The translations under genes were made by a program, and so were the position numbers. DNA of 64,000 bases, from NCBI GenBank assembly GCA_964016885.1, contig OZ024750.1:50964001-51028000 (forward strand), written 5' to 3'. The DNA comes from Eledone cirrhosa (taxonomy: Eukaryota). The notes beneath the pieces were generated by a model. That model did not search any database. It was not told where the DNA came from and worked only from the letters and a program-made list of their open reading frames with translations. Shown one piece after another: positions 21,570-60,105 of the stretch. The first letter of the stretch is position 1. Each line of letters opens with the position of its first letter.

Positions 21570-21633
21570 TATATATCATAAAACATGTCTATAGAATCAC
21601 TGGTGATTCTATAGACATGTTTTATGATATATA
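21570..21633. repeat. Perfect 31-bp-arm palindrome abutting (TA)n
   Basis: TATATATCATAAAACATGTCTATAGAATCAC-TG-GTGATTCTATAGACATGTTTTATGATATATA. Confidence 0.95.
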
Positions 21634-23139
21634 GCTCTGATTATTTAATTTATTAACTTCTCATTGAGCCACAAAGTGACCCGTTGCAAAACACGTATAT
21701 GTTTATATGTATATATATATATATATATATATGTAAACCTTTATATATATATATATATATATATATATATATATATATATATATATATATATAAGTTAAA
21801 ACAATGAAATAAAAATTCAAGTCACTAGAAATATACTTCACTGCTTTACGATCGTTTCTAGGTGATAATAATACATCGTACGCATATTTCGTTATCGAAC
21901 TATGAAGGGTTAGTTACAAAATATCAAATAAGGAATATATTTACCTACCTGTATATCATCAGCCGTTATCAAAAGCAATGAAAATTTTATTCAAAATCAA
22001 TAGTAAATTGAGTTCTGTGACCTTATTTTGAGGTAGCTGAAGAACAAATCAATCAAATGGTTTTTTGCCATATGATGTTAAGATGAAATATAACTCACTT
22101 TAGTTGACCCTTTGAATGGAATGGTTGAATGGTGTTAAAAATAGAATTACTATAAAGAAACTATGAATAAAAAGGAATTGTTATATTGATAGTGGAATAT
22201 AGTTGGTGGAGAGAAGTTTAAAAAGGAATGTAAAAATTAAATGTTGAGTTGTGTTGTATGGAATTTTTAGGTGAATATAAATAAGTAAATATAAAATATA
22301 CAGAGATAACTAGGATAAATATAGATAGGTAAAGTAATGGTCATAACTAGGAAGGATAGTATATTAAAAGATAATAAGATAATAAAATATAATAATATAA
22401 TAATATAATATAATATAATGTAATATAATATAGTACAGTATGGTACATTGTATATAGTATAGTATAGATGCATCATAAAATATACAATAGTAAATATTTT
22501 CAAGTGGGTCTATTTATAAGTAATCAAACTCAGATAAATGCATGTTGACATATAGTCAAAACGCATAATTTTCTTAGATCACAAAAAGTTCATATATTCA
22601 CATATATAGATAGAGGTATAATTACATTGATACTCCATTAAACACATACATACGAATATATATATAAACATATACAAATACATACATATACTATAAAAAG
22701 AAAAAAATAGATTTCAAGCTATCGCGGAATACCATTCTGCATAGAACTCCATATCTTGGGAACAGGAGAGAATGCAGATTACACATGCACCAGACAGTTT
22801 TCACTTCAATTTATTATAAATTTCCGGTTGGCTGGTTGGTTGATTCGATAACCGGAAATTTATAATAATTTGAAATGAAAATTACCGGTGCGTGTGTTTT
22901 TATTGGCAACAAAGTATAACAATATATATATATATATATATATATATATATATAGGAAAAAGTATGACCCCGAGTCCAGAAATAGCCGTCGAAACGGGTT
23001 GAGCTCTGCCGCCGGGGTCATACTTTTTCCTATTTCACACTCTACTACCCTAAGTATTGAGTACTTTGGTTCGTTATGGTCCATCTGGTTCCTTACCAAA
23101 ATTCATTTGTTATATATATATATATATATATACATACTA

Positions 23140-24125
23140 TAAATTAGGCCCATAGAATCATTTGATAAGATATATGCACAATTTTCTCTCTCAATTAGCA
23201 TAATCAACCACACAAAAAACCAATTAAACCAGGCTAAGATTAAAAGGCACCTATAAAGAAATACTAGATAAATAAACGACAGCCATCTATTCGCGATCAA
23301 CAGCTATAGAATATTTACCCTGCATTTCAATAGCACGTAGATATCGATTAAATATAGCGTCAACCAAACACAATTAGGTTTAAAATTAACGTTAGAAGAA
23401 AAAATGTATATAAACATACCAGGAATACGTTTCTACCCCTTAGGGTTTCATTCGCTTTTGGAAATATCCGATCAAGGATAAATTCTCGAGCTTCGAAATC
23501 ATCCGGAAACAAACTAACTTGGACGAAGATCTTTCTTAAATGATCTCCGCCAGAAACGAATTCAAAATGGCTAAGAACTGTGACGTGGCAGTGGTGAAGT
23601 CAGAAAGAATGTGATTGGTGCCTTATGGCGAGTGGGCTCGTTGCTAGAAAGCACAGCCCAATATTGCCTAAATTGCATCTCAACCTTACGGGAGATTATC
23701 AAAAATAAAGATTTACATATACACAAACTAGACAAAGTCATAGATATATATGTTTTTGGCAACCATTCACGATGTGGCTCAATGATGAATTAATAAATTA
23801 AATAATCAGAGTAATATACTATACATAGAATCATTTGAATATGCATAGAATCATTTGATAAGATATATACACCATTTCCTCTCCAAATTACCATAATCAA
23901 CCACACAAAAATCCAATTAAACCAGGCTATAAGATTATAAGGCACCTATAAAGAAATAATAAATAAATAACGCACAGCCATCTATTCGCGATCAACAGCT
24001 ATAGAATATTTACCCAGCATTTCAATAGCACGTGGAAATCGATTAAATATTTCAACCAAACACAATTAGGTATAAAATTGAAGTTAGAAAAAAAAATGTA
24101 TATAAACATAGCAGGATTACGTTTC
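23140..24125. repeat. ~290-bp direct repeat pair (~23140-23430 and ~23845-24125), pLTR-like
   Basis: CATAGAATCATTTGATAAGATATA...CAGCCATCTATTCGCGATCAACAGCTATAGAATATTTACCC is duplicated about 700 bp apart. Confidence 0.8.
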
Positions 24126-24532
24126 AATATTTTTAACAGTAATACTGTACTATATATTTTCAACAGTAATACTGTACTATATACTTTCAACATTAATACT
24201 ATACCATATATATATATATATATATGTATGTATGTATGTAGATAAATCTACCAAAATATACGGTAGCGTCCAATCCGTATGAAGAGCTCAATGTAATCCA
24301 AATATCATGAAAAGAGAAGATGTATTCAAAAATTTGTTCGATGAAAATCACAGGAAAACAGAGTGAAGATAAATTAATTTAAACAATGAATAAAAACAAA
24401 GAAACAGTTCCTTATATAAAAAAATTCATGTATGTATATATATATATACATACATATATGTATATATATATATACATACATACATATATGTATATATATA
24501 TATGTACATATATATATACATACATATATGTA

Positions 24533-58090: not shown

Positions 58091-58626
58091 TGGAGTGAAA
58101 TTTAAGTAAGTAAGCTAATTACTATAATTTTCTTATTTTACGTTTTTCATATATATATATATATATATATATATACACACACAAATATAAATTTAGCAAG
58201 AATCGCATTTCGTCGAGTAGAAATTACCGAAACGCAACTTCCGATTTGTGTTGGCAAGCGCTCGATGGACCAGAAGAGACCAGAGCAATAAAGATAAGTT
58301 ATAAAGGTCATACAAACTAAGACGGCGTTTAAGAAGCTATCAACCACCTAAGCCCCAAAAAGGAGCAAGCTAAGCGAGTCAAACAAAATATGATATGATG
58401 GAAATGATGGTAAAATCCGATACAGGGTTTCTGCGACACCTAAATTAATAATACTGTCTGCTTAAAAAAAATAAGCTATAATGATCGAACAAGGATATCA
58501 CGTTCTCAACAGGCATTTTGTTCTGCGCCAGGATTAGAATCTCACAGTGTTTTGAAAGCACATTTGAACTCTGTGTATATATATATATATATATATATAT
58601 ATATATATATATATATATATATATAT

Positions 58627-58964
58627 ATAATATAAGATCAAAAGATGGTTAAAGGAGTTCAATATATTTTATTATGCGCATTTCAAAAACAAACATCATC
58701 AAATAATAATATTTGTGTTTTCATCAGATAAAACAGGAGAACATGATATGAAGGCTAAAAAAACACTTGTTGATAGTGCAGTTTTAAATCAACATATGTT
58801 GATTTAAAACTGCACTATCAACAAGTGTTTTTTTAGCCTTCATATCATGTTCTCCTGTTTTATCTGATGAAAACACAAATATTATTATTTGATGATGTTT
58901 GTTTTTGAAATGCGCATAATAAAATATATTGAACTCCTTTAACCATCTTTTGATCTTATATTAT
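58627..58964. repeat. Loopless palindrome with 169-bp arms, each carrying a hammerhead motif
   Basis: Centre AACAT|ATGTT at 58795/58796; the arms appear identical. Confidence 0.95.
58857..58925 (+). ncRNA. Hammerhead motif with long stem II; mirror copies on - at ~58666-58734 and ~59836-59904
   Basis: TTTTAT-CTGATGA-AAAC-ACAAATATTATT-ATTT-GATGATGTTTGT-TTTT-GAAA-TGCGCA-TA-ATAAAA. Confidence 0.7.
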
Positions 58965-59982
58965 GCATACTCCAGTCCCACAAACTGTAGAGTGCTTCTT
59001 ATCCGATATCTGCATTGCTTTATTGTACTACAATAAAACTCACCTCCTACATATATATATATATATATATATATAATGTTATAGTTTGCTTGCAGCATTG
59101 TATATAATATATAACGTTAAAATAGTTAGAAGGCTAAACAATACAAAATGGACTGTAAGATGAGGTAACGAAAAGTAAAAGTTACCTGGTAATATTTGTT
59201 TTATTTTGTTGTTGTTCTTCTTCTTTTATCTGTCCAATATTTCAGGACCCAAAAGTCGTGGGATAATCACTCCGACAATACTCGCATTGGAACCCGCTCG
59301 CCGGCTAAGAACAAAACACCTGTTGACGAACTGGCAACCTTATTCGATCGTTATACCAAAAGCTTACAATGAAAGTGGGCAGTATAATTGATATAGGTGT
59401 CACAGAAACCTTCCACTTGTTTATACCTTCAATTTCCAGGAGGTCCTGGTAAATTCTTCTGTTTAAGCTGTTTAGCTTGCTTCGGTTTTTTTGGCTCCGG
59501 TGGCTGATAGCTTCATGACCGCTGTTTTCAGGTTGTTTGGCTTTATAGCGTATGTTAATTGATCTGGTCTTCTTTTAGTCCAGTGAGCGCTTGCCGCATA
59601 TCTCGAAATTTGCGTTTCGCTTTGTGTTTGACCACAGACGAAATACGATCTCGCTGAAATTATTTATATATATATATATATATATATATATATATATGTG
59701 TGTGTGCGTGTAGGAGGTGAGTTTTATTGTAGTACAATAAAGCAATGCAGATATCGGATAAGAAGCACTCTACAGTTTGTAGGACTGGAGTATACATAAT
59801 ATATAAGATCAAAAGATGGTTAAAAGAGTTCCATGTATTTTATTATGCGCATTTCAAAAACAAATATCATCATGCAATAACATTTGTGTTTTCATCAGAT
59901 AAAACAGGAAGACATGATATGAAGGTTAAAAAACACTTGTGAATAGTGCAGTTTTAAATCAACACATATATATATATATATA

Positions 59983-60105
59983 TGGGAGCTCTAGTGAGTA
60001 ATGGTCTAACTGTTTTTTCCGCATCAATTTTGATATATATATATATATATATATCAAAATGGAAGCGGCAAAAACCAGTTAGACCATTACTCACTAGAGC
60101 TCCCA
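59983..60105. repeat. Palindrome centred on a (TA)n tract
   Basis: TGGGAGCTCTAGTGAGTAATGGTCTAACTG ... (TA)n ... CAGTTAGACCATTACTCACTAGAGCTCCCA. Confidence 0.92.

What the first reader, a model, noticed from the sequence alone, without database searches (positions are those of the whole stretch)
21570..60105. At least ten fold-back palindromic inserts, mostly docked on (TA)n: a possible snap-back integration signature
Seen: inverted duplications with little or no spacer at 21570, 22781, 32630, 32981, 36083, 38440, 38703, 39133, 45165, 58627 and 59983. Arm sequences are mutually unrelated and arm divergence ranges from none to substantial. One lies inside PLE coding sequence and one duplicates a hammerhead. 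Known: PLE insertions often carry an inverted 5' pLTR segment. Inference: these are not TIR MITEs but products of PLE reverse transcription in which nascent cDNA folds back and self-primes. They could be a frequent source of hairpin dsRNA for siRNA production or ADAR editing.
Basis: partly seen in the sequence, partly recalled or inferred. Interest (0 to 1): 0.75.

Follow-up and report, generated by a model that had tools for sequence, protein, structure and literature searches.

The report
Twin-primed Penelope retrotransposon hairpin insertions
These DNA palindromes are real, and most are back-to-back partial copies of known Penelope-type jumping genes sitting in TA repeats, likely made when both cut DNA ends start copying the element's RNA at two fixed spots rather than by one copy folding back on itself.

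Summary
All 11 palindromes are real (none in shuffles); 8 have an outer end on (TA)n against 1.6 expected. They are not MITEs. Nine belong to repeat families whose copies show the known Penelope-like (PLE) insertion plan: a tail-less arm and a tailed arm, head to head, with two different fixed outer ends and a variable centre. The 58627 element is a Hydra-clade PLE. In 52 position-sampled insertions of it, the tail-less arm is the longer in 23, the tailed arm in 4, and 25 are near-symmetric; 8 do not overlap at all. One cDNA folding back cannot give arms that each hold sequence the other lacks, unless later deletions did it. Priming from both target strands at two RNA sites fits better and agrees with in vitro work (PMC11167929). 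Snap-back was already proposed in print (PMC3846280) and may explain a minority, here 36083 and 59983. About 3% of a 390-kb genome sample lies in such palindromes; siRNA and editing were not tested. This scan reported the same reading before on other DNA of this and other genomes.

The parts
58627..58795 (-). Family E (Hydra-clade PLE) tail-less arm, pLTR positions 1-169, ending on (TA)n; holds a hammerhead motif at 58665-58735
58796..59052 (+). Family E tailed arm, pLTR positions 1-257; hammerhead motif 58856-58926; 88-nt tail 58965-59052 ending on (TA)n
   Evidence: the exact 36-nt centre occurs 563 times in the genome
59713..59964 (-). Solo family E pLTR stub, 93% identical, starting at the same 5' hotspot
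21570..21695 (+). Family N insertion: 31-nt tail-less arm (minus, 21570-21600) plus tailed arm 21600-21695 (62-nt tail), TA on both sides
   Evidence: of 16 loci, 7 short+tail and 3 tail+tail, centres variable; hammerhead motif upstream in L278
22781..22921 (+). Old (75%) palindrome of family F; right arm ends at the family's short end on (TA)n; left arm decayed
   Evidence: other copies end either at this site or about 60 nt further on
32601..32876 (-). Family J insertion: tailed arm 32601-32752 (27-nt tail 32601-32627) plus tail-less arm ending on (TA)n
   Evidence: 7 short+tail and 1 short+short among 18 other loci seen; no hammerhead found
32880..33316 (-). Family K insertion: tailed arm from 32880 (101-nt tail) plus tail-less arm 33167-33316; family has about 470-nt tandem monomers and a hammerhead-like core read by eye
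   Evidence: at least 8 other short+tail insertions with different centres
34209..36313 (-). 5'-truncated Hydra-type PLE (family H), tailed end on (TA)n 34157-34208
36314..36544 (+). 231-nt inverted copy of family H coding sequence; 4-nt offset, no microhomology at the centre; outer end at an internal ORF site joined to another repeat. Atypical; fold-back candidate
37814..38609 (-). Partial tandem (466-nt unit) with hammerhead motif 38039-38124, plus inverted arm 38440-38606 ending on (TA)n
38630..38960 (-). Family M insertion: tailed arm 38630-38830 (about 75-nt tail) plus tail-less arm ending on (TA)n
   Evidence: 12 of 16 loci have an inverted arm ending at query 120-127; centres vary; no hammerhead found
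39122..39277 (.). Family O palindrome; family has a short and a tailed end and a hammerhead motif (L274); no tail seen here
45088..45288 (-). Family G insertion: tailed arm 45088-45226 (77-nt tail) plus tail-less arm 45230-45288, TA on both sides
   Evidence: 20 of 30 loci have an adjacent inverted arm, all ending at query 62; longer copies carry a variant hammerhead core read by eye
59983..60105 (.). Exception: two 45-nt 3' tails of a G-like family facing a central (TA)n; both arms share a junction not seen in other copies. Likely a local fold-back at the microsatellite
   Evidence: not seen in the printed flanks of 14 other copies

Best explanation
Most of these palindromes are single insertions of Hydra-clade Penelope-like elements or their likely short derivatives into (TA)n, each made of two 5'-truncated arms joined head to head, likely because both cut target strands prime reverse transcription at two fixed sites on the element RNA. 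Shown in the sequence: two different fixed outer ends (positions 169 and 257 in family E), one on each side; variable inner ends; microhomology or short templated filler at the centre. Shown by others in vitro for another PLE: both strands are cut and extended, and RT starts at two sites that bound the tail. Inferred: one RNA usually serves both primers; the tail-primed cDNA either stops near the second primer (non-overlapping class) or displaces it; when both cDNAs run to the same RNA 5' end or break the result is a near-perfect palindrome; the two cDNA 3' ends are then joined by end-joining. Short fold-backs likely occur as a minor route.
For: Family E is a 3918-nt tandem unit with an intact RT-GIY-YIG-type ORF bearing Hydra motifs. 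Exact junction counts: 3365 at the 169 end, 7393 at the 257 end (patterns differ in length). Of 52 resolved position-sampled insertions with one end of each kind: tail-less arm longer by >50 nt in 23, tailed arm longer in 4 (binomial P=0.0003), near-symmetric 25; 8 non-overlapping; 12 have the tailed arm starting at 140-230 (table built). A rough random central-deletion null is rejected at P about 0.01. Asymmetry is present in copies 96-100% identical to the intact unit (L028, L036, L038, L040, L046, L108). Kb-long symmetric palindromes persist (L171, L173, L174, L176, L188). One tail-less+tail-less insertion exists (L168), as do tail-less arms with no tailed partner in the fetched stretch (L042, L177, L182). 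Arms of one insertion share subfamily variants (median 1 difference within, typically 3-7 between). Microhomology of 2 nt or more in 16 of 25 clean non-hotspot junctions against 18.5% expected. Same plan in families G, J, K, M, N, F, H. In the random sample 24 palindromes touch TA at one end and 1 at both. PMC11167929.
Against: 25 of 52 are near-symmetric, and 6 of 23 deep insertions are symmetric against 1.1 expected by permutation (P=0.0004): the arms are coupled, as fold-back predicts; the shared-RNA-end explanation is inferred. Short inverted pieces with no fixed outer end (L037, L041, L172, window 36083, 59983) look like true fold-backs. The deletion null is crude, and among older copies the asymmetric ones tend to be more diverged. 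Two of the 23 are uncertain (L189: 169 end not matched; L191: TA run at the joint); without them 21 vs 4. Several inner-end values in older copies are estimates. Family N has 3 tail+tail among 10 two-armed loci. PMC11167929 saw no strand difference in start site, so it does not explain the asymmetry. No hammerhead or ORF link was shown for families J, M and F.
Confidence: 0.7

Rival explanations
1. One-primer snap-back (first reader; self-priming as proposed in PMC3846280): cDNA primed at the tail end folds back, copies itself to a TA-like site, and later central deletions make the arms unequal.
For: 25 of 52 near-symmetric; excess of deep symmetric centres; microhomology at centres; small fold-back-like pieces; position 169 is itself TA-like and could be cut by the endonuclease.
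Against: Tail-less arm longer in 23 of 27 asymmetric cases, 8 non-overlapping, also in very young copies; deletion null P about 0.01; long symmetric palindromes survive; L168 has no tail; 9 of 25 clean junctions have 0-1 nt of pairing.
Confidence: 0.08
2. Hybrid: both sites are primed, but the overlap part of the tailed arm is made by fold-back of the internally primed cDNA, which then anneals to the short tail cDNA.
For: Predicts the observed skew toward a longer tail-less arm, the symmetric class and the non-overlapping class; L041 and L172 show short inverted pieces at the inner end of a tail-less arm.
Against: Cannot give tailed-arm-longer insertions (4 of 27 sampled; also L003, L009, L033 among young copies); L186's inverted piece reaches further 5' than the tail-less arm.
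Confidence: 0.17
3. Two separate insertions or two RNAs meeting head to head in one TA run.
For: TA runs are reused by many families here; rare tail+tail (L201, L202) and short+short (L168, L206) insertions exist.
Against: Arms are joined directly without TA; pairing is nearly always short+tail; arms share subfamily variants.
Confidence: 0.03
4. TIR MITEs or assembly artefacts.
For: TA flanks; one centre recurs exactly 563 times; raw long reads not tested.
Against: Unequal ends, variable length and centre, hammerheads, continuity with an RT ORF; 10 of 11 have diverged arms; short-read contigs show the same kind of variable joints in this family (table 5).
Confidence: 0.02

Closest known systems
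Hydra clade of C-terminal EN+ PLEs (Craig et al. 2021, PMC8557442; passages, section 11 and supplement rows read), e.g. Hydra-1_Obim
   Same: RW and DKT motifs, CxCx5C linker, CxxC and CxH in the endonuclease, hammerhead, (TA)n target; family E ORF aligns by eye with Hydra-1_Obim.
   Different: Unit 3.9 kb rather than under 3 kb; tails 27-101 nt rather than 30-40; most copies are ORF-less stubs.
PLE insertion plan: inverted 5'-truncated copy plus one-sided tail (PMC8557442 Fig. 2 legend; PMC3846280 passages)
   Same: Head-to-head arms, palindrome at the junction, tail at one end, microhomology joins.
   Different: Those papers ascribe it to self-priming or endonuclease resolution; arm-length data here favour two primings.
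Poseidon PAc in vitro (Frangieh et al. 2024, PMC11167929; main text parts 1-2 read, supplements searched with no hit)
   Same: Both strands cut and extended; two RT start sites bound the tail; AT-rich target.
   Different: Different clade; the text I read does not model the inverted arm or the one-site-per-end pairing.
L1 twin priming (recalled, not read here)
   Same: Second target strand primes internally and gives an inversion joined by microhomology; matches the non-overlapping class.
   Different: Here the second site is fixed and the arms usually overlap and duplicate sequence.
Non-LTR retrozymes (bioRxiv 10.64898/2026.07.22.740005, first fifth read)
   Same: ORF-less tandem units with type I hammerheads (family K, 38440 family).
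   Different: Here mostly inverted pairs, not tandem arrays; RNA circles not tested.

Membership tests
Hydra-clade PLE (family E, 58627) | Single ORF with RT and C-terminal GIY-YIG-type endonuclease | tested here: met
   821-aa open frame in the tandem unit; tblastn to window PLE ORFs; Pfam gave no hit for it and only a weak GIY-YIG hit for the window's related ORF
Hydra-clade PLE (family E, 58627) | RWK-like, DKT, CxCx5C, CxxC and CxH motifs | tested here: met
   RWT, DKT, CNCRIKNKC, CNLC, CLH in the ORF against the list
Hydra-clade PLE (family E, 58627) | Hammerhead in pLTR and (TA)n target | tested here: met
   motif only, cleavage not tested; Rfam gathering threshold gave no hit
Hydra-clade PLE (family E, 58627) | Phylogenetic placement | not tested
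   only motif and by-eye comparison with Hydra-1_Obim
PLE inverted-copy-plus-tail insertion | Two fixed, different 3' ends; variable 5' truncation; head-to-head | tested here: met
   families E, G, J, K, M, N, F, H; not met by window 36083 and 59983
PLE-derived non-autonomous elements (families G, J, K, M, N, O, F, 38440) | Hammerhead motif or link to a PLE ORF | tested here: inconclusive
   motif found for N, O, 38440, by eye for K and G, none for J and M; F not scanned; no ORF link shown
Tc1/mariner MITE | Matching TIRs at both termini, fixed length | tested here: not met
   one-sided tail and variable length in every family examined
Tc1/mariner MITE | TA target-site duplication | tested here: inconclusive
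   cannot be told apart inside (TA)n
One-primer snap-back product | Copied arm contained in the primary (tailed) arm | tested here: not met
   23 of 27 asymmetric insertions violate it; 25 near-symmetric ones are uninformative
ADAR or siRNA substrate | Transcribed hairpin with edits or small RNAs | not testable with these tools
   no RNA holder listed

The most novel reading that the evidence does not exclude
Twin target-primed reverse transcription is the default integration route of these PLEs: one RNA bridges both ends of a cut in (TA)n through two fixed start sites, the internally primed cDNA is usually the longer, and priming in the 5' pLTR with run-off at the transcript start mass-produces short perfect hairpins, some 300,000 palindromes of all kinds in this genome, that feed dsRNA editing.
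Probability: 0.5. Interest if true: 0.6.

Novelty: new member of a known kind. Interest (0 to 1): 0.4.

Why it matters
How PLEs form inverted structures is named as open in PMC8557442, and the printed explanation is self-priming (PMC3846280). Arm-length statistics from thousands of copies give a direct test between self-priming and two-ended priming, and point to an in vitro experiment with the existing PAc system. About 3% of a random genome sample lies in short-spacer palindromes, most beside TA, so this process would be a main source of potential hairpin RNA in an animal group reported to have very high dsRNA potential and hyper-editing (PMC5625713 passages, for Octopus bimaculoides). The structure itself is known.

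Tried and rejected
Rfam at gathering score found only a tRNA-like hit, no hammerhead. Pfam did not recognise the family E ORF. No RNA holder listed, so nothing on expression or editing. Reads and contigs laid on the 36083 centre did not bridge it; the runs may be another individual and a hole proves nothing. One search gave family-level joints, not locus-level proof, and those runs may be the assembly's own sample. Private-allele test could not separate fold-back from one RNA copied twice (5 private alleles in both arms, 38 in one). Folding the tail region gave z -1.8 only. My strict hammerhead scan missed K and G and found none for J and M. The 5' hotspot in family E resembles an initiator motif (recalled, no call), but flanking TA makes the exact base ambiguous; kept as a weak hint. 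Rows left out of the 52: of 69 insertions examined (29+6+23+10, plus two in L176, minus L199 counted as complex) I dropped those with no partner arm or unresolved old arms (L172, L177, L182, L136, L183, L184, L187, L190, L193, L195, L196, L197), complex ones (L156, L186, L199; L178 also seen) and same-end pairs (L168, L201, L202); the young set L001-L047 was not counted because it was selected for a full tailed arm. Paper searches for a twin-priming model of PLE inversions listed none by title or abstract; subscription papers and bioRxiv supplements are not covered.

Full report
Observation. The window is C10:50964001-51028000 of a 3.0-Gb animal assembly rich in (TA)n. Self-comparison finds all 11 palindromes, 74-100% identical by blastn self-match; 10 shuffles give none. 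8 of 11 have an outer end within 12 nt of a TA run against 1.55 expected. In 39 unselected 10-kb stretches (389.6 kb) I found 41 short-spacer palindromes, 6.7 per 64 kb, covering 3.3% of the sequence; 25 touch TA at an outer end (null mean 7.2, maximum 18 in 5000), 24 at one end only. That extrapolates to roughly 300,000; I did not classify those 41 by family. The window is typical of the genome.

What the youngest one is. The 58627 arm has many near-identical copies. A tandem array gives a 3918-nt unit with an 821-aa open frame that carries the motifs listed for the Hydra clade and aligns by eye with Hydra-1_Obim. Its pLTR holds a type I hammerhead motif. Insertions end on TA at one of two fixed places, pLTR position 169 or 257; exact junction patterns occur 3365 and 7393 times. 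The window copy is a 169-ended arm joined head to head to a 257-ended arm. This is the known PLE plan of an inverted 5'-truncated copy plus a one-sided tail (PMC8557442; PMC3846280).

The other palindromes. The same plan, with family-specific tails of 27-101 nt and variable centres, holds for the families of 45165 (20 of 30 loci with an inverted arm, all ending at one site), 32630 and 32981 (output partly cut), 38703 (12 of 16) and 21570 (7 short+tail and 3 tail+tail of 16), 22781 and 38440, and less clearly 39133. Hammerhead motifs were found for 21570, 39133 and 38440 families, by eye for 32981 and 45165, and not for 32630 or 38703. The family of 36083 also has short and tailed ends, but this copy's 231-nt inverted arm stops inside the ORF, joins another repeat and has no microhomology at the centre. 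59983 is two 3' tails facing a central TA run, sharing a junction that 14 other copies lack. Unequal ends and variable lengths rule out MITEs.

Testing snap-back. If one cDNA primed at the tail folds back, the tail-less arm must lie inside the tailed arm. I took family E junctions in positional order along contig C1 and extended long ones. Of 52 insertions with one end of each kind, the tail-less arm is longer by more than 50 nt in 23, the tailed arm in 4, and 25 are near-symmetric (11 at one 5' hotspot); 8 do not overlap, and in 12 the tailed arm begins at 140-230, next to the second end. A young example has a 3.6-kb tail-less arm joined to a 54-nt tail (L040). Random central deletion of once-perfect palindromes is rejected only at P about 0.01 under a rough null, but kb-long symmetric palindromes persist and very young copies are already asymmetric. 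The two arms share subfamily variants. Centres show microhomology (16 of 25 clean junctions with 2 nt or more, 18.5% expected) or short locally templated fillers. Short-read contigs show comparable variable joints for this family.

Mechanism. Frangieh et al. (PMC11167929) showed that a purified PLE cuts and extends both target strands and starts RT at two RNA sites that bound the tail. The simplest reading is that each target end primes at one of the two sites, the cDNAs stop independently or at a common RNA end, and their 3' ends are joined. The one-RNA step, displacement, run-off and the joining pathway are inferred. Against this: symmetric centres are in excess even deep in the element (6 of 23, 1.1 expected), and a few short inverted pieces (L037, L041, L172, 36083, 59983) look like real fold-backs, so a hybrid or minority snap-back route stays open.

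Known or new. The structure, TA targeting and even the self-priming hypothesis are in print. I did not find the twin-priming account of PLE inversions in the paper searches, but earlier agents in this scan reached it on other DNA; my counts were made before I saw those notes, and they are not independent proof. The dsRNA, siRNA and editing suggestion is plausible (PMC5625713 passages) and untested here. Verdict: real, mostly a known kind of insertion, with useful evidence on an open mechanistic point.

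Noticed in passing
   Followed up: partly
window about 16650-21451: Near full-length Hydra-type PLE (ORF pieces 17021-19761, one frameshift) between two direct pLTRs with minimal hammerhead cores, ending on (TA)n.
   Followed up: partly
window 40600-41950: Decayed third Hydra-type PLE ORF (tblastn).
   Followed up: no
window 22955-23110: Another family G copy with a 17-nt inverted arm, TA on both sides.
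   Followed up: partly
family E, unit positions about -1430 to -1560: Second cluster of inner ends (L037, L038, L165, L167, L169, L170, L174, L176, L181), possibly another RNA 5' end or RT pause.
   Followed up: no
L016, L014, L043, L175, L181, L188, L201 centres: Fillers made of repeated local copies and mini-hairpins, as from repeated re-priming during joining.
   Followed up: partly
L163 centre: Tail-less arm joined through an A/T run to a full-length unit starting at its first bases.
   Followed up: no
window 3685-4380, 34572-34700, 39294-39500 and others: Abundant tRNA-derived SINE-like repeat, including a 196-nt tandem array; one copy abuts the 39133 palindrome.
   Followed up: no
window 28046-31438 and 48884-57878: Decayed LINE-type RT ORFs on the minus strand (RVT_1 hits).
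   Followed up: no
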